The position numbers were made by a program, and so were the translations under genes. 64,000 nucleotides of DNA from Paraspadella gotoi (lineage: Eukaryota; Animalia; Chaetognatha). The DNA lies in assembly GCA_051294375.1 (NCBI GenBank), contig CM119269.1, positions 17,346,265-17,410,264 of the forward strand. Direction: 5' to 3'. The notes beneath the pieces were generated by a model, which made no database searches, had not been told where the DNA came from, and saw only the letters and a list, made by a program, of their open reading frames with translations. Below are positions 5,267-56,800 of the stretch, piece by piece (within the stretch, counting starts at the first letter, position 1; the number at the start of each line of letters is the position of its first letter).

Positions 5267-6307
5267 TCATTGAAACCAAGAAGTGAAATCGAGTAGCTCT
5301 TCCATGTTTCCGTTTTGCCAGGGCGCCATTTCTTCCATTTCGTTGTCCTCGAGCTGGAGAGAGTTCTCTTCTAAGTCTGAGGCGGTCGAGGAGAGCTGCG
5401 ACGGCGACGTCGACACCGTCGTCGATTCCGTCGACGCCATCGGAGTCTCCATCACCGCGACGGCCCCGTTTTCCGGCGCCATGCTCAGTCCTTCGGCCAG
5501 AGGAGGGAGATAGAAGGAATGCGGCGTCGTGCTGACGGGCGAGCTTGCCTGCGTCGGGATTTCGTCGACGTCCGGATCAGCCGCTTCGGACGAAGCGTCG
5601 ACGCGTTCGGCTTCCTCCGGCGCACCGAAGACGCGATCGTGATCCGCGATGATCTCTTTTAGGCGTTGAATGTATTCGACGGCGCAGCGGAGAGTGTCAA
5701 CCTGGGAGAAAAGTATATTTTATGTATATTTATATTTCATTTCTTGTTGCGTGTGTCTTTAACTCAATAGTGAATACTGAAAAGTGCAATTTAACAATTT
5801 TTCTGACTTTTGGTATCAACGAAGATTTCCATCATCTTCGCCCTCATCTCAAAACCCTTCGTAAAGACCCCGCCCAATCCACCCACCGGGGGCCCCAAGG
5901 GGAGTTCTTTCACCTCGCCACGAACGACAAAAAGTTATTCACTCCTTTTTAGTGTACAATGTGGTTCCGACGGTGCGACGAAACCAGTTTTGGAGAAATT
6001 TACGAATTCTGCGGGTACCTTCTTTATCTCTCTCTCTCTCTCTCTCTTTCTATATCAGGAATTCGGAATTAAAAAAACGGTTTTAATCCGTTTTCTCGTC
6101 TCGCGTTAAATGAAAAGGATTATCTCCGCTCCATCGATCTTGTCAACGCTCGTCACCTTTGCGATCGAACGGGGGAATTTCTTTTTCTGTCTCGATCTTT
6201 TGCGCCAAACGATTAAATTTGAAAAATTTTTATTTTGATTTCGAGTGAATAAAACTGGAATCGAGTTTGAACCGTTCGATAATAAAAATAATCGTGGCAC
6301 GCGCTAC

Positions 6308-6353
<46 letters not shown>

Positions 6354-7680
6354 CTCTCTCTTTCTCTCTCTCTCTTTCTAACTCACCTTACTCATTTTCT
6401 TTCCCGCTCTCCCGATGTGCGGGACTCGCTCTCTCAGCGTCGTGAATCCCAAGTTGACGAGTTTGACTCGATTTCTCTCTCGTTCGTTGCGACGCGAGAC
6501 GGCGGGGCGGGCGGCGGTCGCCGAGTGACGTCCCGGTGACGTCGAGGACGACGGATGACTCCCGACGTCGGACGGAACGCGACGTTTGCATCTGCGGATG
6601 AGAAGAATTGAGGGTTGACGAAAAAAGTTGGATAACCAAGTTGAATGACCAAACGAGTCCCGTTGCTTTTTTGTTTTACTAAGAAAGGGGGAGGAACTAT
6701 GTGGGAAGTCGAATGTACATTATTTTACATTATAAGTTTATTATATTAACTTAATTCTATTTCTAGAAATTCCTTTCAAATTCTCTTTATCTCTCTTTCT
6801 CTTTTCCTTCTTTCATATTTCACCTCAAAATCGTCGGCTTCTCTTCCATCTCTTCACCCTTTTCCCTCTTTGCGTCGATGAGGGCGCGACGAACGGTCTT
6901 GACGGCGCCCGACTTTCGATCGGTCATTTCCGGCGTCGACGACGACTCTTCTTCCTCGTTGTTGTTGTTATTGTTTTTATTGTTGTTGTAGTTGTCGATG
7001 CTGGAAGAGTCGATCGGCATCAAGAGTCCGAAGGTAGTTGGCGCAGTCGTCGCCGTCGTCTCCTGACGCGGAGTAAAGTCGAAACCGGCGTCCATGAGTC
7101 CCGATGCCGACGCCGGCGGCGAGATGGGCGTCGTCGTCGGGAGATAAAATGGTCCGAGGGTGTCGCCGAAGGACGCCGGTTCCTCGACCCCGCCAGAAAT
7201 TCGCGGCATTGGGTCGCTTGGGTGGCGCATGGGCGGAGGCGACGACGCCGGAGGGGTTATCGGCGTCGTCGGCACTGTCGACGCCCGCCGGGGATTCGGC
7301 GGCGTCGTTGGTGGATCGGGAAAGATTTGTCGCCGATTCGAAACGGCGGGAGGGCGAAAAGGAACTTGGTATGAAGAGGAGGATAGTGAGGACAAGGGGA
7401 AAAACGCCGCTGATGCTTGGAGATGCATTGGAGTGAGTTTAAAGTGTTGTTGCGGCGAAGAGGGTTGCGGGAGAGAATGCTGCAGGGGCAATAGTTTGAA
7501 GCGATGCTGCGGCGAAGAGGGTTGTTGCGGCGAATGCTGCAAGGGAGGAAGCCTTAAAGGCCTCTGGGGTGAAGAGAGTTGCTGCGAGGACTGATGGCGA
7601 AGCAGTTCGTCCTCGGAATTGTAGCAAAGTCCCGAGTAATCGAGAAAAGGGGGAGGGAGGGTTGGCATCGTTGTCGTCAT
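5267..7680 (-). CDS. ASCL: Proneural achaete-scute family (ASCa) bHLH transcription factor; exons 7680-6824, 6591-6387, 5701-5267 (~498 aa)
   Basis: Spliced translation with GT-AG, phase-consistent introns gives ILRCKRR...[28 protein letters not shown]...KKMSK|[14 protein letters not shown] and C-terminal [10 protein letters not shown], matching ASCL1-type motifs; AATAAA at 5137-5132. Confidence 0.95.
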
Positions 7681-8194
7681 TGTAGGTATGGAACTGAGGG
7701 AACGATTGAAAGAGAGAAGGGAGAGAGAAATTCAGAAAAGATGAGGGGAAACGTTTCCTTTTTTTTTTTCTTTTTCAACTGAAAGAAAAGTTTTTGTCTT
7801 TTTTTTTAGCGAGATCCGCACGAACCTTTTTTTTTCTCTATTCAATATTTGTGGATGTTTTTATTGTTTTTTTTTCCATTTTCGGATTTTGGTTCCGTCG
7901 GGATGCTGTATCTTGGTCTCGTGCCGTGTCGCGAACTCTGTCTCTGTCCGTCCCCCGGCTCGCTCTCCCCCTCGCTTTTAAAGGCCTCGGCGGAGCTTTC
8001 CGTCTCACCCCCGCCCGATCGGGAGGGGAAGACCCAAGGCCGACGGGGGATGACGACGACGACGACGACGACCAAAATGACGACGAAGGGTACGTCGTCG
8101 ATTCCAGATCCTCTTCTTTCTCTCCCCGCTCTTCCTCCTCCGGTTGACAGGAGCGCGCGTGGCATCGAGACGGACGAAGACGAGTGTCTACGTG

Positions 8195-36131: not shown

Positions 36132-36361
36132 TCAAATTGATGACCAAGGAAACACGTCGGCTAATTTGTTCCTTTCTTAGATTCTTTCGCTCAAAACATT
36201 CAATTTCTCAAATTGATGACCAAGGAAACACGTCGGCTAATTTGTTCCTTTCTTCGATTCTTTCGCTCAAAACATTCAATTTCTCAAATTGATGACCAAG
36301 GAAACACGTCGGCTAATTTGTTCCTTTCTTCGATTCTTTCGCTCAAAACATTCAATTTCTC
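36132..36361. repeat. 3 x 76-bp near-perfect tandem repeat
   Basis: Unit tcaaattgatgaccaaggaaacacgtcggc...caatttc starts at 36132, 36208 and 36284. Confidence 0.92.
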
Positions 36362-36554
36362 CGATTTTTTTTCCCTTTTTTTTACTCTACACCCTTTTTA
36401 TTTTTCTCTTTCCACTGTTTAACCTTATCTTGACGTCTTCCATCCCTTTCGCTCTCTCTTTGAAAGAGAATAACGAAGAGACAAAAAATGTCCTTCACGC
36501 CACACGTTTTCTTGTTTTCAGAGCGAAAGAGATGGGGCATGCTCTCTTTAAAAA

Positions 36555-37755: not shown

Positions 37756-39091
37756 TCAAATGCACTGGTAGTGATTGCAGAGGCACAATTCATCCGCGCC
37801 GCACCAACGCGCTGTGAAAATTGAACATTGCTGATGAGCGGGGTTTGTGTCCAACATTGCAAATATTAATGACAAGTTTAATAGTAATGCATGTTCAACA
37901 GTATTTTAATAATATTTTAAAGAAGGGCCGAAACGATCATCAAAAGACGCAACCTGCAAACTTTCATACGTTATTACATAATTTTCCGCAAAACATTAAG
38001 CTTACCGCATTGATAAAATATCACGTAGCTCGCCCACATGACTGCCATTTGCGCCAAGCTGTGACCCATGAGGCTCATGGTGAAGATGGCGCCGTGGGAG
38101 TCGTCGACGAGGTAGACCATGATGAAGGACGCCGTTGAGAAGTGGAGCGCGAAGAATTCAGGGATGAAGTACAACCAGCAACAGCATTGACTGGTGATTG
38201 GGTGAATGGAGAAATTATGGTTTTTTATTTAAAAAAAAAATGACGAATCATCAAAACGCGTTAATTATACATAGAATTGAGGAATTCAGAGCTAGACAAG
38301 CCTGATTGTATTGCATGAATTCGTACAACTAACCTAAAAATTATCCATTCTTTCAATAAACAACTAATATTTTTAGTTAGTAATAAGCTATCTTGCCCTT
38401 GACATTAAATGGACAGGCTATGGTGGGTTTAGGCCTCCATCCATCCTACCAGATAATAATATAAAAGGGCGCTGCCAGATCGTAATCAAGACTCTTCCCG
38501 TATAGTTAATTAAATATCAAGAAAGTTGTATTGAGGCGAATCCTAAATTCGCCTCCCTTATATGTACGTTGAAACTAAGCTCGTCTGTTGTCTTGGACAG
38601 CTAAGTACTCACCAACTGTCTGTTCAGGTTTCAATCCCCTCACAGACACGCTGTTTATGTGTGATGGTGTCGCCATAAACACGCCAGTGACATGGGGTAG
38701 TCACTGCAGATCCAAAGCCCTGATCGCCAGCTGTCGGGAGACTAATACCAGTATTTTTCTTTTAGTGACATAGCCAATATCACAAATCATGCAAAGTATT
38801 AGAGTCCCAGGGACATCGTTTGACATCCAACCAAAATGTATCCTTTCTCTCGACTCCGGGGACTAACATGGCGGCGAAGATGCAAAAGAGGAATGAGACG
38901 ACGGAGAGAGCGAAGGCGGACAACGCCATCACGCGGGAAGTTTTCGAGTCGATGCATTTCTTTTCCTTGGGTTTCGGCACAGTTCGAATGCTCGTGCCGC
39001 GCGACAACCTTCGTGATACATGTCGAGGACGGCCCGCCGTCTCCACGTCGTCGTCAAGGTCGTCGTCGTCTTCGCTCTGGTCTCGTCTCAT
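37756..39091 (-). CDS. Small multi-pass membrane protein of unknown family; exons 39091-38784, 38190-38006, 37811-37756 (~182 aa)
   Basis: Phase-consistent GT-AG splicing; acidic/basic N-terminus, hydrophobic segments (ALSAFALSVVSFLFCIFAAML; FALHFSTASFIMVYLV; LAQMAVMWASYVIFY), Cys-rich loop and C-terminus. First donor GTGATA is weak. Confidence 0.6.
38645..38735 (+). ncRNA. Diverged type-P5 twister ribozyme preceded by degenerate tRNA-like B box
   Basis: GTGT-GATGG-tgtcgcca-TAA-ACAC-GC-[CAGTGAC..GTCACTG]-CAGATCCAAAGCCCTG, closed by gaca.gctg/cagctgtc; ggtttcaatccc just upstream. Confidence 0.75.
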
Positions 39092-41047
39092 AATAGTATA
39101 TTTTAAGTACAATGAAGAAATAATTAAATAAATATAAAAAATACGTTTATCTTTCGCTACTCTGCTTCTTTACATGCATGTTTAAACTCCCTAAGCCCAA
39201 ATCCTAACTTAATCTTTATCCCTAACCCTAAACCTTTATCCCTAATTTCTAATCCTAACCCCTAACTTTAAACCCTCGCCCTGAAGTCAGACATTGTAAT
39301 AAATTTACTCCTTATATAAGCATTAAGCATAGCTCATTGAGTAATTGTAATACATCAGCTCATGATCGTCAGGTACTTGGATAAATCCCCAATGTACCAT
39401 TACCTTACCTTACCATAAGTACCTTACCCTGCTGGAAGCGGGAGGACCAGTTCCATGGCTGCAAGAAGCGGTTAAAGAAGTTACAGATAGCAATCTTCAG
39501 CTCACTTAACGCCTTATCCGCAGCCCTCACCAGTAACCATCATTCTTAACCCTAATCACTTACCTCATCCCTAAGCCTAATGAATAACCATTAACCATGT
39601 CCCTACAATTAAAAAAAATTAACCTATTTCCAAATTTAATATAAATTGGGCGTTCAGGGAGTAAAGTAAAAAGTAAAGGAAATTGTGGGGTAAAATGAAT
39701 ATTTAATTTTATTTTTATTTAATTTAATTTTAAATCACTCGTACGAGGGTAGAGAGAATCGACAATACACTGTTTTTTTTTAACCATGCAGTCGAAAAAT
39801 TTTCACAATCCTGTACAGTTTCTAGTATAATTTTAAGTGCTTAAAACGATTAACAAGGTGTCGTCAATCAGATTTTGCGTTAGACCTACGCACAATTGAC
39901 CGGAAGTTGACGTTGACTACAACATAGAATTTTTCTCTTTTCTTTAATTGCAAGATAAGAAAATAGTTTTATAAAAATAATAATCGCTAAATTTTAAGTT
40001 ACTCTCATTATTTAATAAGTTTTACTTTAAAATATTTTAAAAAAAAAGGTTCTTACCCATAGTGGGCGTGTCCAAAACCGGAAATGTCGCTCAAAAACTG
40101 ATAAAATACGCAATATTAATAGTTTTTGATCAACTATAAATATAATGGTTTTTTATTTTCATATTATAGTTGTATCACAAAGAATTATCATATATATCAT
40201 AAAAAACTATCATAGCTCTAAATAGATAAAATAAATATCAGTTACAAAAGTAACTGTTAAAATTCAGAATTAATATTATTTCTTTATTCGTTGTTGAAGA
40301 GACATCATATGCACAGTAGATAATGATTTAGTATTAAGCATATAAACTTTTTTTGACAAGGAAATAAAAAATATTTAGTATTAAGCAATTCGTGGTAGGA
40401 TTTATAAGTATAATTTTCTTACTTTTTTGCAAACATTTTGATTCTTATGAACTAATCATTTTTAAAGGCAGTCCAGAGTAAAAGTAAATTGTTCCAGAAA
40501 AAGTAGGTAGAGAGAGAGAGAGAGTAAGAAGGAGAAGCAAATACAAAAGAACTGCCTTGAAAAATGATTTGTTCATAAGAATCAAAATATTAGCATGAAA
40601 GTAATAAAAATGAACTTGTAAATTCTACTATGAACCTATCAACCTTTAATTAAAGTCTTCATCCGCATTTATGAATTGTCAACAGTTTTTTACTTCACAA
40701 GAAATATTTGGGAGAGAGAGGAGAGAAAGGAAGAGAGAGTGAGAATTAGGTGAGAGTAAGGGAAGAGAGAGAGAGAGAAAGAGAGAGAGAAAAATTTTAA
40801 ACAAAGATTTGAGAAAAGGATAGAGGTCGAGGTGAAGACAGGTTAGGTTTAGGCCAGAGAGAGAGAGAATAGATATTGAAGAAAAAAAACATTTTCACTG
40901 TTTAAAGAAAAATCGTTGCTTGAACTACTTCAAACTCTCTCTAATTCAAAAACGCGACGAAAGAAAGGATTTCACTTAATGGTATAAATGATAGTTTTTT
41001 TATTGCTGGATTAAAGGTTTTTTAAGGAAAAAATGTATCATATTACT

Positions 41048-41091
<44 letters not shown>

Positions 41092-41254
41092 GTTTGACCA
41101 TTTCACTTCTTTTCAAAAAACTCACTCAATCTGTCCTTGCCTTCATCTGTCCTCACCTCTGACCACTATTCTGTCTCACCACTTTGTTAGAAATTTAACT
41201 CTCTCTCTCTCTCTCTCACATTTACTTTTGCAAAAAATTTTTATAGTCTGTCAA

Positions 41255-41298
41255 AAACATTGATGAAGACTTGATCAAGAGTCGAAACATGTCTGTTT
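41255..41298 (+). ncRNA. Minimal hammerhead ribozyme variant (core TTGATGA)
   Basis: aaaca-TTGATGA-A-[GACTT gatcaa GAGTC]-GAAACATGTC-tgttt; same family as the 1338-1384 motif. Confidence 0.6.
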
Positions 41299-41394
41299 CT
41301 ATTAAATAAAATTGTTGTAGTACAAATCTAAATGCTAACTACTGAAGAGACAGTAATTATTGATAAGTGTTAATGACAGAACCGTTCAATATAA

Positions 41395-41468
41395 GCAGTC
41401 CCTGAGCTTCGGATCAGGCTGTTACACCATGCTACAGGCGGGTTAAGCGCCCCGTCCCTCTTAACTGC
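41395..41468 (-). ncRNA. Type-P5 twister ribozyme (third family)
   Basis: Minus strand: GCAGT-taagagg-GACGG-ggcgct-TAA-CCC-GC-[CTGT..ACAG]-c-CTGATCCGAAGCTCAG-gg-ACTGC; P2 is short and imperfect. Confidence 0.7.
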
Positions 41469-41472
41469 CAGT

Positions 41473-41542
41473 CGACCACCGGGCTAGAACCCTGGACCTT
41501 TGGGTTGGGAGGCAAATGACTTGCCTCCGGCACCAATGGCCG
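41473..41542 (-). ncRNA. tRNA-derived head (Pol III promoter) directly upstream of the twister motif
   Basis: Acceptor-like CGGCCAT/GTGGTCG pairing, A-box-like TGGTGCCGGAGG and B-box GGTTCTAGCCC; arms are degenerate, so not a functional tRNA. Confidence 0.65.
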
Positions 41543-42582
41543 CTGATGAACGGTTGGTGGATTTTAGTCCACCATAATGCCAAAAACACAACGAAACGAA
41601 AGGAATACCACAATAAGGAAAAAAAGAAAATTATAAATCTGATTAACTTTTTGAGCATGGATATTGTTTCTCTTCTCCTTCACCTGGAAAAACTTAAAAA
41701 TAGGGTATTCCCTCTAAAGATTTACATAAAACTTTATGAAAAAAGGGTCTAACTTCCGACTATAGTTTTTGAGCAAAAAAATGGTATGCCAGTAAAAAAA
41801 TTACTGATGAAAAAAATTAAATTTGTAAAGGGTATTAAAAATTAAAACTAGGAATTGTTAAAATTAGCAAAGTCTCATTAATTGAATAAAATTGAAATGA
41901 AATTTTGAATATTTACAGTTAAAGTTAAAGTCCTTTGGCTATTAAAAAACAATTTTTTTTAAGATGTAATAATTGATAAATATGATAGGATTTTTTTATG
42001 ATATGGATGATAATCCTTTGTGATAAAGCTGTCATATAACAGTAAAAAACCATTAGCAGTCTGAATAGATCAAAAACTTTTAATAATACATATTTAATTG
42101 ATTTTCGAGCACTATTTCCGGTTTGGGACACGCCCACTATTGATGAAAACCCTTTTTTGAACATTTTTTGTCTCAGTACTACTTATTAAATAATTATACT
42201 AATTGCAGGATAAGTAAATAACAACTGCCTAACTTTTCATTTGTAGTAAAAGAAAAAATTCCATAATGTAGTCCACGCCAACTTCCGGTAAATTGTGCGC
42301 AGGTCAAATGCAAAATCTGATTGACGACACCTTGTTAATCGTTTTAAGCTCTTAAAATTATACTAGAACTGTACAGGATTGTGAAAATTTTCGATTGCAT
42401 GGTTAAAAAAAAAACAGTGTAATCGACAAGCATATTATCAATTTAAATATCTCATTGAGAGCCCGAGACAGATCAGGTTTCATTGACTGCTGTTACACTT
42501 GTGTGGGCTTAGGTCATAAACAAAGCTTATTACGCAGAAATATGTATTAATCATCTTTTATAATGTCAGGGTGAAAATAATT

Positions 42583-43605: not shown

Positions 43606-45005
43606 ATGACTGAAGAAAATCCAAAAACTTCCAACGGGGGAGACGAAGAACCGCCCCCAGGACTTCTGGAACGGTCGGCCATTCAAGATGGAAAGAGAGA
43701 ACGGAAGAAGACGGAAAGACTCTCCGTCACAGCCACGGACGAACGCGAAAAACGTTTTGAAATTCCGGAAGGCAAGGGAACGAAACTGGGCGATTGCCCG
43801 AGAATAGGTAATGCTTAAGTTTTAATGCTGGTTGACCCAAACTAAGGTATGGATTTATTGTTGGGAGGAGGAGCACTTCTGGGTGTGGACTGGTTTAATC
43901 ATTTTCAAAATAATTTCAATCAATATTTTTTTATATTATTATATTTTTATGTACTAGGCATAAACGGAAATTTCACACAAAATAATAGCGTCGGTGCTTT
44001 CCCTCAGATCACAACTTAACCTCCTACAAGGCGGATGAGCTGAAGGGCCTCCACAAGCTCCTTTTCAAAACTCCTGGTCAAATTCATACTCTCAAGAAAA
44101 ACATTCGAAAGTTCAACGGGTTTGCGTTTGACTCTGGCTCCCCAGAACAGGAAAAGAAAAGTCAACAGCTAAACAAAATGGTAGTATCTTTTTCAATCAT
44201 ACTACGTGAATGGCGATTCAAACTTCCATTTAACCTTTGCCTCTACGCAGATGCTGCCCGAACTGAAGAAGATCTGCCTCGTGCTAGATTTAGAGCGAAG
44301 CGGCGCCAAAGAGACGATCGTCGAGCGCATCCTCCAGTTTCTCCTTCAGCCCAGCGACTCTGGACGAAGCGTTCCAAAGAAGAAGTCAAAAAAGAGGAAG
44401 TCCGAGTCGAAGGGCGCCGCCGACGCCGGGAAGATCAAAAAGACGAAAAAGAAGACGAAAAAGAAAAATACTGACGAGGACCTCGTCGACGACGACGACA
44501 TCAGCGCCTCTTCCGGCGCAGAAGACGACGACGACAAAGAAGAAGAAAAAGAAGAAGAGGATCGAGCGAGCGATGAAGAGAGCGAGCCAGAAAAGAAAAA
44601 GAAAAAGAAATCGGCTCCACCCAAGGCCAACGGCGTGAAAGAGAAGAAAGAAAAGGCAAAGAAAAAAGTCACGCCCGCCAAGAAAGTGACCGATGACGAC
44701 ATCTCGCCGGACGAAAGCGATTCGGACGACGAACCCCTGGCAGCCAAGAAAAAAACTATTCCTACCGACAAAGGTTTGCGACTCCCCCTTTTCCCCCCCC
44801 CTGAGTTTTATTTCCGTGTTATTTCCTATCTTCACTTTTCCCTGCAGAAATAAAACAAACTGTGGAGGAGGTTTTGAAAGACGCGGACCTTGACACCGTC
44901 ACCATGAAGTTGGTCTTCAAGGACGTCGCCGCCAAATACCCCGACTTCGATCTCTCCTCCAAGAAGGACTTCATCAAAGCCACCGTTAAGAAGATCATAT
45001 CTTGA
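43606..45005 (+). CDS. DEK: DEK chromatin protein; exons 43606-43807, 44008-44180, 44251-44773, 44848-45005 (~351 aa)
   Basis: GKRERKKTERL, EGKGTKLGDCPRI, LHKLLF..PG..LKKNIRKFNGF, SAP-like ELKKICLVLDLERSGAKETIVERILQFL, and DEK-C (ADLDTVTMK..YPDFDLSSKKDFIKATVKKII). Confidence 0.93.
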
Positions 45006-45248: not shown

Positions 45249-48200
45249 ATGGCACCCTCGCTGACGGCGGCCGAGATAATGGCGCGTCGACGTAACTACG
45301 CCTCTTCCGTCAAAATCAAGGGAACTGTGAAAATGGATAAAGGGAAACAGATCGCCGTCGTCCAGGAAGGTCCGTTGGGGAGGGGACTGGGAGGGGGGGG
45401 GATTTATAGGTAAGGAGGCGAGAGGGAAAACTGTACATCTACGCAGACCGAATGAAGAATTAGGAAAACGTTAAGGAACCACATTTAAAAAAATATGGCT
45501 TTATGGCAACGGGAGGATAGCCTGTGATACCCGGGGCGCGGGGTATCTCACCAACTGGCGTAGGGGCTGCGGACCCTCAGTGACCGCCTCCTGTCACTGG
45601 CATGTTTATACCGGCACCGTCACATTTAAGCCAGAACCGGGATACCCAGGGATTGAACCCGGGACGCACGGATGGAATGAGATGATTTAGCCTGCTCAGC
45701 CATTGAGACGAGGCTGAGGACGGACAGCAGTGAGGCAGCTTTAAGTCTTGCTGCCACAGGATCCCCCTACCAGACTTCTCCACAGGGGCCTCAATCCTGA
45801 GGAGATGTCTGAGAGAAGGTTTTGATCTCATTGCCATAGTGAGAGCGAGCGGGCGAGCGATTGAGCGAGCGAGTCTGGAGCGTTACCAGAGAAGTAGGGC
45901 ATAGGCGTGATATGCATACCCTAAGCGACGTAAGCGTGGGCGCATGGTGCGCAGCGGTTGCGTGTTCGAGAGTAGGGCTCACCACTTATGGCAACGGAGG
46001 ATAGCCTGTGATACCCGGGGCGCGGGTATCTCACCAACTGGCGTAGGGGCTGCGGACCCTCAGTGACCGCCTCCTGTCACTGGCATGTTTATACCGGCAC
46101 CGTCACATTTAAGCCAGAACCGGGATACCCAGGGATTGAACCCGGGACGCACGGATGGAATGAGATGATTTAGCCTGCTCAGCCATTGAGACGAGGCTGA
46201 GGACGGACAGCAGTGAGGCAGCTGCCACAGCTTTTCAATTATTTTTTGTTTTTATTATCAAATCACATAGTGTCTCGTGACGAAGAAAGAGAAAAGCTGA
46301 GAAAGTGGATGGAGGAGAAGAGGAGGAGAGACATGGAGGCGATGCGCAGAAAAAAGTTGGCGCAAGATCCCGCGCAGGGAAAAAAGGCGCCTGCCGACGT
46401 CAGCGGGAAAAAGAGCGCCGGCGAGCCCGTCAAAAACCCTGCGATGAAAAACAAAGAGAAAATCGCCAAATCCCATTCCATAGCAGAAGTGCGCGGTGAG
46501 TGGTCCTTAATGACGCCCTCCAAATTTTCTGTTTTTAGCGATTGCTTATTTTGATCAACTTCCTGCAGCCGACGCAAGCGTGTCAATCGCAAATGAGACG
46601 ACAAATCCGAAAACTCAGGCGACGAAAAAAGTAACATTCACCGGCGGACCAGGTGACTGTTTGTGAAAATTTGTCTTATAAACGAGCCTTCGCTATCCAT
46701 TGTTCAATAATTTTTTTCACAGTCTCGACTCCGACGGCGGAAAAGTCGAAGCTCGTCCATCGCAAGACCCCCAAGCGTCCTTCTTCCACTCCGAACTTTC
46801 GGCGAATCACAGAGAAATCCAAATCTGCCGCCTTGACCCCAATTTCGATAACGGCGCGCACGACACCGGCCACGGATCGTTCAGCGATTCCGGCGCGACT
46901 TTCCTCCAAAAAATTTGAAAAGCTAAGCCCTCACTCCAAGTTTGACCATTGGCTCCGAGTCAAGGGTAAAACTCCGACGCAAGTCAAACACATCGCGTGC
47001 GTCACTCCAAACCGAAAAAGTTAGTTTAATAGTTACTTTTTTTGAAATTCATGTGTATTGGGTAATAAATAATTTGCAATCCAGGAAGTTGAAGACACTT
47101 AGTTTTTGAGACGTCAATAAAAGTAGTTTTGTCCTGATTGCCAGGCGGCCTCGCGGCCATCATTCGTAATAAACTCGAAACATGAAATTTTTTAGATATG
47201 ATATTTTTACTAGCGTCTTCAGTCAATGTCGGGGTGTACGTATTTGGCATTATTGCTTCCAATAGGTTCTTTAAAGCCAACGCATGGTAAAGATTCTATT
47301 ACCGACGACGACGACGAATTTTTCACACGTCTTGTTGAGTTAAGGCAAAAGCGGAACGTCGAAGAAAACAAAAGCGCAATCGAGGTTGACTGTTGACGTT
47401 GAAACCAATTGCTCTCAGAGCAGAGAGAATTAATGTGTATCGTTGACACTTACAGCTTTCTTCGGTTTCTGGCGCAAATTGCGTCAATCGAGCTTCTTAC
47501 TGGTTGTGCCTATCTCATTTGGCGCTCTTAGACACGAAAAGGGCGCCGTCCGAACGGCGTCGCCGCGCCTTTGATTCTCTAAGCTCCGGCGTCGAACGAA
47601 AGGCGGCGCCGAAGGAACTTCTCGTGGAGGAAGCCGCTCAAATTGTTTCGCGAATGTTCGACCTTGAAGATCAGGTGAAAACTGTAGTTTTGGCGTGAAT
47701 TTATTTTGTTCCTTATTGTCTCCTTGACATATGTCTTGTAAATAATGGCCTTCCCATTCTTAGGTACCGGCAGCCGTTGAAGGCAAGAACAGCACTTTTA
47801 CTCTCGACGAGCAGTTGGAAAAGGAAAACATCGCTGGCTCTCCTAAAGGCCAAGCAGAGGTTTGTGTAATTTTTTTACCACCCTTCATTTTTGGGTCCGC
47901 CATTCTTTCGGAGGAATAACTCAATGAAGAATAAAAAAGCTTGGTTTTTTTTTTCGTTTTTAAATTTTAGGTCGATCCTAATGAGAGTCAGATTTTGACG
48001 CCTCCCGCCTCGCCTTCCGGTTCTCCCACCGCGCTCGGCGCGGTCGGCCCAGACGTCGTCTTGGCATCGACTCCGTCACTGCCCAAGCCTTTCCCCCTCG
48101 ACTTTCAGTCGCTGGTACGTTTGCTTTGTATTTCGAGTCAGAGTTAAATATTAAAAAATCATAAAACAATACTTCGGTCGCAGAACGCTTCGACGGATAC

Positions 48201-50844: not shown

Positions 50845-53800
50845 ATGATCTCTTTATACGTTATTTGCGTGGCCATCTTGTTCGCCTCGCTCGCCCATGG
50901 ATTTCCATCGTGGATGGAGAGCCTCCGCGGCGAGGACGCTTCGGCCCTTTCAAGGAGAAGACTCCTGCAGCTCGGAAACGATTCACGGACGGAAGTCGAC
51001 GAGACCAAGCTTCGTAACGACAGCCGAAGCGATCAGGTCTCAACCCCCTCGCCGCGCTCGCCCCATCAAGAGATCTCATTTTTCGCTCTCTCGATTCTCA
51101 ACAACACCTACACGTTGCCGTCCGCCGACTCCGACAGCCCCAACATCCACTCCAACATGAATTTCTTCTTCGAGCTGCCTTCCGGTGAGAACCTTAAGGG
51201 ATCTAGGTTTATAACCTCGCACGCTAAACCAAAGAGTAGTGACATGCTTAAATGTTTTTCAAAATTTCACTCGCATCCCCCACCCTTGCTGATTCTTTAA
51301 TAGACTTCACCAAGTCGGCGATACTTCAACTGGAGACGCGAATTTCGATGGCCTCCTGCGCCGAAGACCCGGAATCGATCGTCCGCAGCCTCGTCACCTC
51401 CGCCAACGGCGTCCGCACCGCCATAACGAGCACCTGCCTTCGCGGACGTCGCCAGGCCAGGGGTCGCGGTAAGTTTTTCTACCAAGGGGCTTTTTACTGA
51501 AATTTAAAAATTTATACCTTTTTTTACTAATTTCTTGAAATTTTTTTTAATCTTTAGTCCACGGATCATTCATGGACGACGGAAGAAAATCTATTGATGA
51601 TGATCAGGACGACGACGAGTCAGACGACAAGTGGGCCAAAGCGGCGTCCGCCGTCGTCTGCCCCATTAACGCGCGGGCCGATCGTTTGTGGATTGACGCC
51701 GTTGGTACCCCCGGCGCAGTGTTTAACATCCACATCGAGGCGAGGTTCAACAACATCAAAGTCGGTCATCCCAAACAGGTTGGAAAATTAAAGAATAAAA
51801 GGTGACTTGTTTATAATTATATAATAACAACACTGATAGGTCGGAAAATAATAATTTTGATTGGAAATTAAATTGCTTGCTGTTTTACATCACACCCACG
51901 ATTTTTTTCAGGTGACCATCTCCGGAGTAGGCCGCGACCACGGCGTTGACGGTGACGACTCTTTCACGGAGATTTTCACCTTCGAATTGGACCACGTGAC
52001 CGCCGGCTCGCAGATCATGCTCGCCTTTTCCTCCTCCATGGAGGACAACGTTCCCGCCGAGTTCACGCTCATGAAGGACTGTTACGACGGCAGCAGTGGA
52101 GCGAAGAACGAAGAGCGGAGGAAGATCAGGGGTGAGATAAACCAGGACAGAGTCCCTCGTTTTCATATTTTTTTTTTTTAAAGTTTAAAATCCGTTTCAC
52201 GCTTCTACCCTTCAAGGATTGCGGTACGCCGCTCGAATGAAGATGACGGCGAGACGTGTTGGGACCATGTTTCTGTCCCCCGCCACGCATCCCCGGATCA
52301 AAGCCGGCAAATGGTACATCGGCGTCACCCTCCTCAACCCCAAAGGATTTTGGCGCAGGTAGTTTTTTTCTTGACCCTGGTAAAGAAATAGAAAAAGGAA
52401 GCGCCAAGGAAATCCTTCTCCCTCAAAGAAATAGAAATAGAAATAGAAAAAGAAATAGAAAAAGGAAGCGCCAAGGAAATCCTTTCTCCCTTAAAGAAAT
52501 AGAAAAAGAAATAGAAAAAGGAAGCGCCAAGGAAATCCTTTCTCCCTAAAGGAAAAAGAAATAGAAAAAGGAAGCGCCAAGGAAAATCCTTTCTCCCTTA
52601 AAGAAATAGAAATAGAAAAGAATAGAAAAAGGAGCGCCAAGGAAATCCTTTCTCCCTTAAAGAAATAGAAAAATTAATAGAAAAAGGAAGCGCTAAGGAA
52701 ATCCTTTCTCCCTTAAAGAAAAAGAAATAGAAAAATAAATAGAAAAAGGAAGCGCCAAGGAAATCCTTTCTCCCTTAAAGAAAAAGAAATGGAAAAAGAA
52801 ATAGAAAAAGGAAGCGCCAAGGAAATCCTTTCTCCCTTAAAGAAATAGAAATATAAAAAGAAATAGAAAAAGGAAGCGCCAAGGAAATCCTTTCTCCCTT
52901 AAAGAAAAAGAAATATAAAAAGAAATAGAAAAAGGAAGCGCCAAGGAAATCCTTTCTCCCTCAAAGAATAAACTCGTCCGACGCGAACGCGACTCTCGCG
53001 CTCAACCGCCAACGACGACAGGGTGTCATCCTGACGAAGTCGTTGACGATCCACATCCGCGACGATTCCGAGGCCTTTCGGATCTGGCCCATTTTCGCCA
53101 TGGCCTCCATCTCCTGCGTGGGAGTCCTCGCTCCACTCCTTTATTATCGACTCCTCACCCAAGTGGAGATCAAGTTGGGCGCCAAACTCGGCCGCGCGTG
53201 GGTGAGTTCTGCGTTGCTCTTTTTCTTATTTCTTCAGGTTTTTAAAATTCACTTTGTCGGTCCGTCGTTCCCTCCTCCAAATCGCTTAGATCGTGACAGA
53301 ACATAGAATTATAATAAATTGCGCAAAGACAACGATGTCTGTTTGCCCGTCCGATCCCCCTTTGAACGCGGATTACTCATGAGTTTAGAGGGCGATTTAC
53401 TTAAAATTTTTTGTGTGATTAAGCTGGAAATAAAGTTTTGATGGAAACGTTTGAGTCGAAATGAGATTAAATAGAAAAAACTGCGAAACTTTTTTTTCCT
53501 TTTTATATTAAGCAGTTGTGGCAGCAAGACTTAAAGCTGCCTCACTGCTGTCCGTCCTCAGCCTCGTCTCAATGGCTGAGCAGGCTAAATCATCTCATTC
53601 CATCCGTGCGTCCCGGGTTCAATCCCTGGGTATCCCGGTTCTGGCTTAAATGTGACGGTGCCGGTATAAACATGCCAGTGACAGGAGGCGGTCACTGAGG
53701 GTCCGCAGCCCCTACGCCAGTTGGTGAGATACCCCACGCCCCGGGTATCACAGGCTATCCTCCTGTTGCCATAAGTGGTGAGCCCTACTCTTGAACACGC

Positions 53801-56800
53801 AACCGCTGCGCACCATGCGCCACGCTTACGTCGCTTAGGGTATGCATATCACGCCTATGCCCTACGTCTCTGGTAACGCTCCAGACTCGCTCGCCCGCTC
53901 GCTCTCACTATGGCAATGAGATCAAAACCTTCTCTCAGACATCTCCTCAGGATTGAGCCCCTGTGGAGAAGTCTGGTGGGGGATCCTGTGGCAGCAAGAC
54001 TTAAAGCTGCCTCACTGCTGTCCGTCCTCAGCCTCGTCTCAATGGCTGAGCAGGCTAAATCATCTCATTCCATCCGTGCGTCCCGGGTTCAATCCCTGGG
54101 TATCCCAGTTCTGGCTTAAATGTGACGGTGCCGGTATAAACATGCCAGTGACAGGAGGCGGTCACTGAGGGTCCGCAGCCCCTACGCCAGTTGGTGAGAT
54201 GCCCCGGGTATCACAGGCTATCCTCCCGTTGCCATACAGTATCATTAAATTATTAATTAAATAATTAATACAATGACTAAAACGACGACGAAGATGGCGT
54301 CGCCAGTCGATTAAAAAAATGTTATTGTTATTAACTAATTAATTAATTATTAAATTATTTAAATATTTAATTAATGCTAATGATCGTGGGCAAATCCGGT
54401 ATTGTTTGCTCAAATTTGTTCGTTTCTATATTCATATTTTAATTTTTATTTTATTAGATCAGCGTGATTTGTAATTGGCTGCTAAAGGGGCACAAAACTT
54501 TCAGCTACACCACAGTTTTGTTCGGTGTCACCCTAGCCATCGGCGCTTTCCAGATGGTGCAGGAGAATTGGTAATATATGCTTGTAGTGGAGCTGAATGT
54601 GAATACGATGAGTCCGGAACGGCATAAATTTACCATCGCCGACTGGGGAAGTTTAGGGTTAAGGGTGGTTTAGGGTTAGGCCGTAGGGGTGATTAGTAGA
54701 GCGTAGTGAAAGTTAAATACGAAAATTCTAAATGTCAATTATGAACAACATACCATCAGTGGACATTAATTTGTAAAAAAAATTAATTTTATGTTCTTCA
54801 ATTTTCGCAGTAGGCTATATTTATATGTTTTGTTTAAAAAAGTAAAAAGAGAGAGAGAGAGAAATGACCTTGGTACTTGGTAGGAATAGGCACTTAGGCA
54901 GTAGTCATTAATAAAAACACCATCAGTGATTTTTGACCACTTTTCTCCATGATGAAAATATATCTTTATATTAAATTATTGGTGCTTGCGATGATGACGT
55001 TAAAAGAATCAATTATCATATAATAATTATCATAATACGTATTTTAAACCCGAAATTCGTAGGTACAAGATGCTCGTTGCTGGCGACAGGGATCTTTGTT
55101 ATTATAACGAACGATGTTATGTAACAAACCTCATTTACGACTATCCTTTTAATCTCATAAGGTAGGAAGAGAGGCGACGTTGTCGTTTTCATTCTCCCAT
55201 AATTGTTTCATAATTTTTTTCCAGTTCAAACATTTGCTACGTTATTCACGGGGTAATCGTCGGTCTGTCTTTGTCCGTTCGCGAAGCTTATTGTTTTTCC
55301 GAAGGTAGACGAACTTTCGAAATTTTATGATAACAGAAGTTCTTTAAATGTTCACTATATCTTATTTAGATAATGTAAAATTTCTGATCAGGCCACGTTC
55401 TATACTATGATTTTTCTTTGGGCTATGCCCTCGCTTGGGCCTTGATCTTCGAGGGCGTTTTTTCTTCCATATATCACCTCTGCCCCACCCGGCTCATTTT
55501 TCAATTTGACACGAACTTCATGTATCTCATTGGCGCCCTTACAATTACCTGCGTTTTTCATGGAAACTCGATTACACAACAAACTCTCCTACTGCTTCAG
55601 CGGTCAGTAATAACACACGGTTCCCTAGACACCCCGAAAAAGAAAATAGAAATAACCCATTTTTGAAACACAAAAAAATGAAAAATATAATGTTTTTACT
55701 ACATCGTAGTGAAGTCGAAAAATACTGATCCAAGCAAGTTTTTTTTTAATTGAATTTTAAAGTTTTGTTATAATTTTTCATTCAAAATGATGAGAAATTA
55801 ATCAACGACTTTGTCATTCTTTGTCAAATTTGACTTTCTTTATATCAATCATTATCTACTGAAAGAGAGCTTTAATTTGAACTCACTCTCATAAGCCTAC
55901 GATTATTTGTTCTCAAGTTATTATTGAAAATAACTCAATTTATTACAAAAATAGTAACCATTTTGTAATTACTACATGAAAGACTTATTCAATTATTATT
56001 TAATAAAAAACTATAGGAATGTAACATACAATTGCTTAGCTTCAAAATTAACCTCATTTTAAATTTTTCTTCAACAAATAAGTACTATGAAATGCTATGT
56101 ATAAAATTTTATAAATTATTCAAAAATATATATATAAAATTTAACAATTTTATACATAGCATTTCATAGTACTTATTTGTTGAAGAAAAATAATAATAAC
56201 TTGAGAACGAATAATCGTAGGCTTGTGAGAGTGAGTTCAAATTAAAGCTCTCTTTCAGTAGATAATGATTGATATAAAGAAAGTCAAATTTGACAAAGAA
56301 TGACAAAGTCGTGGATTAATTTCTCATCATTTTGAATAAAAAATTATAACAAAACTTTAAAATTCAATTAAAAAAAAACTTGCTTGGATCAGAATTTTTC
56401 GACTTCACTACGATGTAGTAAAAACATATTTTTCATTTTCTGTGTTTCAAAAATGGGTTATTTCTATTTTCTTTTTCGGGGTGTCTAGGGAACCGTGAAC
56501 AATCGTAATTAATCTTTTTTCTTTACATTTATTTATTATTTATATGCTTATGTATAATTAAAATTACAGATACTCCCATTTAACTGAAGATGTCAAAAAG
56601 GCTCTTAATTTACTCGCTAGTCAAAAAAGCTTGCATCATACCAAAATTTTCCTGTTTTTCGCCGCCCCCATTCTTACCTTCAATTACTTGGGATCTATTA
56701 AGGAAGTGTCGGGATTCGGACCCGTTCTACAGGTTCGTTTTTGGTTTTCAGTTTCGAAAAACCGTTCTTTTCGGATCCGAGGCGACGTTAAATGCCACAA

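What the first reader, a model, noticed from the sequence alone, without database searches (positions are those of the whole stretch)
53517..54236. Miniature LTR retroelement with a Pol III promoter plus twister ribozyme in each LTR: candidate twister 'retrozyme'
Seen: non-coding LTR-internal-LTR element with 4-bp TSD, PBS and PPT; each LTR has tRNA A/B boxes followed by a motif aligning position by position to the twister core (P2-GA-NGG...U^AA-P2-GC-P3-P4 with loop GGTCCGCAGCCC versus canonical GGUCCCAAGCCC; both pseudoknots intact; P5-type permutation). The sense strand has no TTTT terminator. Known: tRNA-carrying TRIMs with 4-bp TSDs in animals have been described (Helenus/TRIMp3), and plant LTR retrozymes carry hammerheads and yield circular RNAs. 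I am not aware of twister ribozymes described in such LTRs. Inference: Pol III transcription through both LTRs followed by cleavage at 53667/53668 and 54137/54138 would release a 470-nt unit RNA that could circularise and be mobilised by a Gypsy-type partner.
Basis: partly seen in the sequence, partly recalled or inferred. Interest (0 to 1): 0.95.

Follow-up and report, generated by a model that had tools for sequence, protein, structure and literature searches.

The report
Twister-ribozyme LTR retroelement in an animal
A small, recently copied jumping element in an animal genome carries in each of its two end repeats a tRNA-type promoter motif and a conserved twister self-cutting-RNA fold, which would likely cut its transcript into a 470-base piece predicted to close into a circle, a design I found in print only for plant elements that use a different (hammerhead) ribozyme.

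Summary
53517-54236 is a non-coding LTR-internal-LTR element (257/213/250 nt) with a 4-bp TSD, PBS-like and PPT-like motifs and no sense TTTT. A second full copy with its own 4-bp TSD lies at 46229-45502 (-).

Each LTR holds tRNA A/B boxes followed by a complete P5-permuted twister fold that also has P3. They show compensatory changes in P2, P4 and pseudoknot T1. The element's two odd letters are tolerated in published twister mutagenesis.

Against: Rfam does not recognise the motif, a competing hairpin out-folds the ribozyme by 3-13 kcal/mol in nested-fold models, and transcription, cleavage and circles are untested.

Best reading: a Helenus-like TRIM that works like a plant LTR retrozyme, with twister in place of hammerhead (0.55). 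The main rival is partial cleavage that gives a linear RNA with terminal redundancy (0.28). Nine literature searches found no twister in LTRs and no animal LTR retrozyme. New variant of a known kind; interest 0.78.

The parts
53513..53516 (+). Left 4-bp target-site duplication (CAGT)
53517..53773 (+). 5' LTR of element A1 (257 nt, TG...TA); begins with a hairpin
53573..53584 (+). tRNA-type A box (Pol III start inferred near 53566)
53616..53625 (+). tRNA-type B box inside an intact T-arm-like hairpin
53641..53720 (+). P5-permuted twister fold. P5 53641-45/53716-20; P2 53650-53/53670-73; catalytic GA 53654-55; T1 53656-58/53703-05; 2-bp P1 53659-60/53665-66; predicted cut 53667/53668; T2 53674-75/53708-09; P3 53676-82/53691-97; P4 53699-701/53710-12
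53774..53986 (+). Internal region, 213 nt (longest Met-ORF in the whole element is 69 codons)
53776..53785 (+). PBS-like motif two bases after the LTR; primer tRNA not identified (9 of the first 10 letters match the tRNA-Trp PBS in Kojima Fig. S2)
53978..53983 (+). PPT-like G-rich tract three bases before the 3' LTR
53987..54236 (+). 3' LTR (250 nt): A box 54043, B box 54086, twister 54111-54190, predicted cut 54137/54138
54237..54240 (+). Right TSD (CAGT)
45502..46229 (-). Second full copy A2: LTRs 46229-45987 and 45758-45502, own 4-bp TSD AAGC, predicted cuts after 46091 and 45608 (483-nt unit); 4 substitutions from A1
38532..38741 (+). Family B remnant: 5' hairpin, decayed tRNA head and P5-type twister (predicted cut 38676/38677); this copy appears cut short at its 3' end
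41375..41574 (-). Family C single copy (3' limit approximate): 5' hairpin, A box 41535, B box 41492, P5-type twister 41468-41395 (predicted cut 41445/41444); one P2 strand is a base short

Best explanation
This is a non-coding miniature LTR retroelement whose LTRs each hold tRNA-type promoter boxes followed by a twister fold; RNA polymerase III likely transcribes it through both LTRs, the twisters would cut at 53667/53668 and 54137/54138, and the 470-nt product is predicted to circularise and likely be copied and inserted by an autonomous Gypsy-type partner. Shown: the anatomy, two insertions with different 4-bp TSDs, no Pol III stop signal inside, and conservation of the fold across three families. 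Inferred: promoter use, cleavage, ligation and the partner. The circle follows from the retrozyme argument: cutting identical LTRs at the same site leaves no repeated R end for strand transfer, so a circular template is needed. A hairpin across the rejoined cut site may keep the circle from re-cutting.
For: Anatomy and TSDs in 2 of 2 full copies. A versus B: 16 of 63 core positions differ, yet 20 of 21 pairs hold, with 3 two-sided changes (P2, T1, P4); simulated P=0.0015. At the one broken pair, most B contigs read the pairing letter (78,310 of 83,420 summed depth in X1). Three families: 33 of 36 core cells paired and 4 of 12 pairs with two-sided change. B's P3-P4 part is the top Rfam hit of its stretch (twister-P1, 16.2 bits, E 0.8). 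The four positions intolerant of any change in the rice twister (G13, G30, A46, G48; PMC5113685) are intact. C27G/G47C scores 0.86 there, and A28C double mutants reach about 1.0. P1 is dispensable (PMC5408937). The no-R logic and a blocked ribozyme fold in the unit RNA are described for plant retrozymes (PMC4918200). The circular fold of the unit has z -3.3 (0 of 60 shuffles as stable), with the cut site in a hairpin at p 0.67-0.81.
Against: No Rfam twister match for A or C at E<=10; B is far below the gathering score of 67.2. The twister-compatible nested fold lies 3.4 kcal/mol above the minimum for the isolated motif and 6.6-13.0 in longer contexts, pseudoknot energy not counted. The same hairpin could therefore block cleavage in the precursor too; P2 has pairing probability of 0.01 or less. 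That hairpin is not fully kept in B. Covariation rests on three sequences. B and C were not shown to be full LTR elements. No tandem LTR-internal arrays, RNA ends or autonomous partner could be examined, as no genome is held.
Confidence: 0.55

Rival explanations
1. The twister is active but cuts only part of the time, and the element replicates as a linear RNA. If the 5' ribozyme is skipped and the 3' one cuts, the RNA (about 53566-54137) keeps a ~100-nt repeated end and the ribozyme replaces a terminator. If only the 5' one cuts, a run-on RNA also keeps redundancy.
For: No TTTT inside; the first lies at 54437 for A1. The published Helenus LTRs that I read mostly end soon after the tRNA part in a T-rich stretch (read by eye). 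The competing hairpin would lower cleavage yield. Ordinary strand transfer needs no ligase.
Against: Identical ribozymes in both LTRs make doubly cut products unavoidable. The unit folds better than shuffles. Plant precedent shows complete processing and circles (PMC9695139 and PMC4918200 passages).
Confidence: 0.28
2. The twister is a relic of a captured tRNA-headed, ribozyme-bearing SINE-like unit and no longer cuts in family A; the element moves as an ordinary Helenus TRIM.
For: The minimum-energy fold masks the cut site. P1 is only 2 bp and its first base differs in about 13% of X1 depth. Kojima proposes SINE capture as the origin of Helenus.
Against: Compensatory changes across three families. 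Among the rows listed for X1, the P1 base is the only core change at 5% or more (16 rows not shown). The deviant letters are tolerated ones.
Confidence: 0.14
3. The motif only resembles a twister by chance, or is a different structured RNA.
For: No Rfam support for A and C.
Against: 0 of 20,000 LTR shuffles fit the descriptor. T1 covaries. Family C was found by a model trained on A and B only (E 0.017, rough) and carries the canonical loop.
Confidence: 0.03

Closest known systems
Plant LTR retrozymes (Cervera et al. 2016, PMC4918200)
   Same: Non-coding; LTRs each holding a self-cleaving motif; PBS, PPT, 4-bp TSD; the unit between ribozymes lacks R; ribozyme predicted blocked in the unit fold.
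   Different: Twister instead of type III hammerhead; animal host; internal tRNA-type promoter; PBS resembles tRNA-Trp rather than tRNA-Met; smaller (720 nt, 470-nt unit); circles not shown here.
Helenus / TRIMp3 (Kojima 2024, PMC10886601)
   Same: TRIM with tRNA A/B boxes in the LTRs, PBS, PPT, 4-bp TSD in animals; length within 311-1263 bp.
   Different: About 150 nt of structured sequence with a twister follows the B box, and there is no T-run. 'Twister' does not occur in the main text and 'ribozyme' only in a reference. No twister was seen in 4 FASTA parts read by eye or by 11 loop and cut-site strings. TG...TA ends.
Twister ribozymes, type P5 (Rfam RF02684) and type P1 (RF03160)
   Same: P2, P4, T1, T2, U^A site, GA, L4 loop; termini in P5.
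   Different: Has both P3 and P5, a 2-bp P1, and C at the A28 position in family A; below Rfam thresholds.
T-variant twisters of Schistosoma Perere-3 (Liu et al. 2021, PMC8501958)
   Same: Twister processing a retrotransposon RNA in an animal.
   Different: There a single ribozyme sits at the 5' end of an autonomous non-LTR element, with the TSD at the cut site; here two copies sit inside LTRs.
Schistosome Pol III hammerhead SINE repeats and animal non-LTR retrozymes (PMC6765202, PMC7761336)
   Same: Pol III promoter followed by a ribozyme in repeats; unit-length release.
   Different: Those use hammerheads in tandem repeats and lack LTR, PBS and PPT (stated in PMC7761336).

Membership tests
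Helenus/TRIMp3 | Two LTRs around a short non-coding interior, 311-1263 bp | tested here: met
   720 and 728 nt; longest Met-ORF 69 codons
Helenus/TRIMp3 | tRNA-like A and B boxes in the LTR | tested here: met
   TRGCY and GGTTC present; the YGG of box A reads AGG. ARAGORN finds no full tRNA
Helenus/TRIMp3 | 4-bp TSD (animal type) | tested here: met
   2 of 2 full copies
Helenus/TRIMp3 | PBS complementary to a host tRNA 3' end, and PPT | tested here: inconclusive
   TGG motif and G tract in the right places; host tRNAs not available; 9/10 match to the listed Trp PBS
Helenus/TRIMp3 | Pol III transcription; Gypsy partner | not testable with these tools
   No genome held; contigs cannot show RNA starts
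Twister ribozyme class | P2, P4 and pseudoknots T1, T2 | tested here: met
   All pairs form; covariation in P2, T1 and P4
Twister ribozyme class | U^A site, catalytic G, mutation-intolerant G13/G30/A46/G48 | tested here: met
   Present in A, B and C
Twister ribozyme class | Self-cleavage at U^A | not testable with these tools
   Needs a bench assay
Rfam twister-P5 / twister-P1 families | Score above the gathering threshold | tested here: not met
   No hit for A or C; B 16.2 of 67.2 bits. RF02684 has 58 positions against 80 nt here, and rang in no control genome
LTR retrozymes (strict) | Type III hammerhead in each LTR | tested here: not met
   No hammerhead match at E<=10; a twister fold is present instead
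LTR retrozymes (strict) | Non-coding, LTR, PBS, PPT, 4-bp TSD | tested here: met
   (primer tRNA not identified)
LTR retrozymes (strict) | Unit-length circular RNA accumulates | not testable with these tools
   Only assembled contigs were served

The most novel reading that the evidence does not exclude
An old, multi-family lineage of animal LTR retrozymes that arose independently of the plant ones: Pol III-driven, twister-cut circular RNAs of about 470 nt that are copied back by a Gypsy-type element. It would show that the ribozyme class is interchangeable in circular-template LTR retrotransposition, and give a genomic source for twister-bearing viroid-like circles.
Probability: 0.5. Interest if true: 0.88.

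Novelty: new variant of a known kind. Interest (0 to 1): 0.78.

Why it matters
Published accounts split retrozymes into LTR forms in plants and non-LTR forms in animals, all with hammerheads (PMC7761336; bioRxiv 10.64898/2026.07.22.740005). An animal LTR element with twisters breaks both rules. It gives the twister class a second retrotransposon role besides 5' trimming of an RTE element. It also offers a small, young, multi-copy system in which to test whether LTR reverse transcription runs on a circular template without an R region.

Tried and rejected
Rfam scans: no twister for A or C.

Pattern scans: 0 hits in viral contigs; 3 in metagenome contigs and 3 in prokaryote genomes, none with the full fold by eye. 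RF02684 found nothing in those 3 genomes or in 14 controls, so no independent twister-P5 set was obtained. No match in phage records.

Expression: no RNA holder listed. X9 and X10 are only guessed to be RNA, and X9 also covers flanking repeats, so they were not used as expression evidence. Summed contig depth was not used as a copy number.

I first read family B as a solo LTR ending at 38750 with a GTAT TSD. I dropped this because 37, 14 and 26 contigs in three runs continue past 38741 with other letters.

Host phylum not resolved: the achaete-scute search shows only that it is an animal. Earlier-findings look-ups by sequence, by place and by the full word set returned nothing. Roth et al. 2014 is not held.
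Full report
OBSERVATION. The element is as described. The LTRs 53517-53773 and 53987-54236 differ by 2 substitutions and one 7-nt gap, enclose 213 nt, and are flanked by CAGT on both sides. A TGG-led PBS-like motif starts two bases after the 5' LTR and a G-rich tract ends three bases before the 3' LTR. It differs from the first by 4 substitutions plus indels, and its two LTRs differ by no substitution. The two copies fix the ends as TG...TA and show recent LTR-type integration. In public run X1, 31 contigs leave the reference just before 53516 with low agreement (0.46), that is, many different flanks. The window encodes an intron-containing achaete-scute gene, so the host is an animal; the phylum was not resolved.

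THE TWISTER FOLD. After the A box (53573) and B box (53616), each LTR can form every twister element with its termini in P5 (coordinates under parts). A descriptor with general twister rules, written after I had seen the sequence, found 5 sites in the window. The mean over 100 shuffles was 0.07, and 0 of 20,000 shuffles of the LTR fit. The fifth site belongs to a diverged relative, family B (38532-38741), which aligns along the whole LTR. In the 63-nt core A and B differ at 16 positions, yet 20 of 21 pairs hold, three through changes on both sides (P2, pseudoknot T1, P4). Random substitution at the same rate did this with P=0.0015. At the one broken pair, most B contigs in three runs read the pairing letter. 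These are probably not family A reads, because other A-specific letters are absent from the table (22 rows not shown).

A model built on A and B alone then found family C (41574-~41375, minus strand) as its best other match (15.6 bits, E 0.017, rough). C has the same order of parts: 5' hairpin, A and B boxes, and a twister with the canonical loop; one P2 strand is a base short. Over the three families 33 of 36 core cells pair and 4 of 12 pairs show two-sided change. Three sequences are few, and that tool warns that its shuffle counts are not probabilities. A scan for paired A and B boxes found 5 sites in the window, all followed by a twister (B's decayed head was not among them).

DEVIANT LETTERS. 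Family A differs from the rice twister at C27/G47 (swapped) and at A28 (C). In the supplement of PMC5113685 the double mutant C27G/G47C has relative activity 0.86. A28C reaches about 1.0 in combination with neutral changes; I read the single mutant as 1.00, by counting columns in a partly shown row. The four positions that tolerate no change there are intact. P1 is only 2 bp, but P1 is dispensable (PMC5408937).

AGAINST. Rfam has no twister hit for A or C at E<=10. B gives a weak top hit to twister-P1 over P3-P4 (16.2 bits against a threshold of 67.2). The P5 model has 58 positions against 80 nt here, which may explain the miss, but no positive control rang, so that is untested. A hairpin across the cut site out-competes P2 by 3.4 kcal/mol in the isolated motif and by 6.6-13.0 in longer RNAs, pseudoknots not counted. 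B and C are single remnants, and B appears 3'-truncated.

MECHANISM. Shown: the anatomy, repeated insertion, and conservation of the fold. Inferred: Pol III starts near 53566 (from tRNA geometry, recalled) and finds no terminator. Both twisters cut, giving a 470-nt RNA with 5'-OH and cyclic-phosphate ends (established twister chemistry, recalled). Such an RNA has no repeated R end, so, as argued for plant retrozymes (PMC4918200 Discussion), it would have to circularise to be reverse transcribed from the PBS. The circular unit folds better than 60 of 60 shuffles (z -3.3), with the rejoined site held in the competing hairpin (p 0.67-0.81). This parallels the blocked hammerhead noted in plant retrozymes. 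A Gypsy-type partner is inferred from the 4-bp TSD and PBS type, following Kojima. The main rival uses the same hairpin differently: partial cleavage yields a linear RNA that keeps about 100 nt of redundancy, with the ribozyme standing in for a terminator. I put these at 0.55 and 0.28, an inactive relic at 0.14 and chance at 0.03.

COMPARISON. It meets the testable Helenus/TRIMp3 features, but those elements were described without ribozymes. The LTRs I read mostly end shortly after the tRNA part (4 FASTA parts read by eye; string searches over the whole file, which can miss motifs broken by line ends). It works like an LTR retrozyme but fails strict membership (no hammerhead). Animal retrozymes are said to lack LTR, PBS and PPT, and a 2026 preprint keeps that split and does not mention twister. 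The retrotransposon-linked twisters in what I read are 5' ribozymes of RTE-type non-LTR elements. Twister-bearing circular RNAs are known from metatranscriptomes.

NOVELTY. Nine searches found no twister in LTRs. The library lacks most subscription journals; Repbase and Dfam could not be searched; Roth et al. 2014 and its hit list were not available; bioRxiv supplements are closed. Prior mention cannot be excluded. Unchecked AI notes on other genomes report P5-type twisters in Penelope-like elements that Rfam also misses; these are a different element class and a lead only.

WHAT I SAW OF EACH PAPER. PMC10886601: main-text parts 2-4 of 6, passages, supplement parts 1, 5, 6, 7 and 10 of 11, and two string searches. 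PMC5113685: whole main text and supplement search hits. PMC4918200: passages and Discussion. Passages only: PMC7761336, PMC6765202, PMC8501958, PMC5408937, PMC6154101, PMC9901934, PMC9695139, PMC13570524, bioRxiv 10.64898/2026.07.22.740005 and 10.1101/2022.07.19.500677. Roth 2014: nothing (recalled).

VERDICT. A real, young TRIM family with a well-supported twister fold in each LTR and older relatives nearby; activity untested. New variant of a known kind, interest 0.78.

Noticed in passing
window 53766-53782 with ~53903-53916: The LTR end and PBS are predicted to pair with the internal region in a long helix that would cover the PBS.
   Followed up: partly
window 39782-42404: About 2.6-kb element with ~400-nt inverted ends (77% alike), DNA-transposon-like; family C sits inside it.
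   Followed up: partly
window 41579-41575 and 41375-41371 (-): Family C is bounded by a short direct repeat (CATTA), a possible TSD, and its two ends are predicted to pair; copy number could not be checked.
   Followed up: partly
window 55690-56427: 738-nt MITE-like element with 236-nt inverted arms, 98% alike.
   Followed up: no
window 52375-52987 and 36132-36366: Tandem arrays of about 62 nt and 76 nt.
   Followed up: no
window 53378-53494 and 54314-54430: Other multi-copy repeats flank element A1 on both sides.
   Followed up: no
window 53202 onward: A1 lies downstream of a GTGAGT splice-donor-like site on the same strand, so it may sit sense in an intron, where cleavage could affect the host pre-mRNA.
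   Followed up: no
window 5267-7731 (-); 43989-44853 (+): Intron-containing achaete-scute bHLH gene; a weak SAP-domain match in a probable DEK-like gene (that label is recalled).
   Followed up: partly
window ~1320-1441: Long palindrome sharing about 60 nt with the flank at ~41260-41317.
   Followed up: no
window 42277-42371 (-): Second weak model match (14.5 bits, E 0.034) in the inverted-repeat arm; it did not fit the relaxed descriptor.
   Followed up: partly
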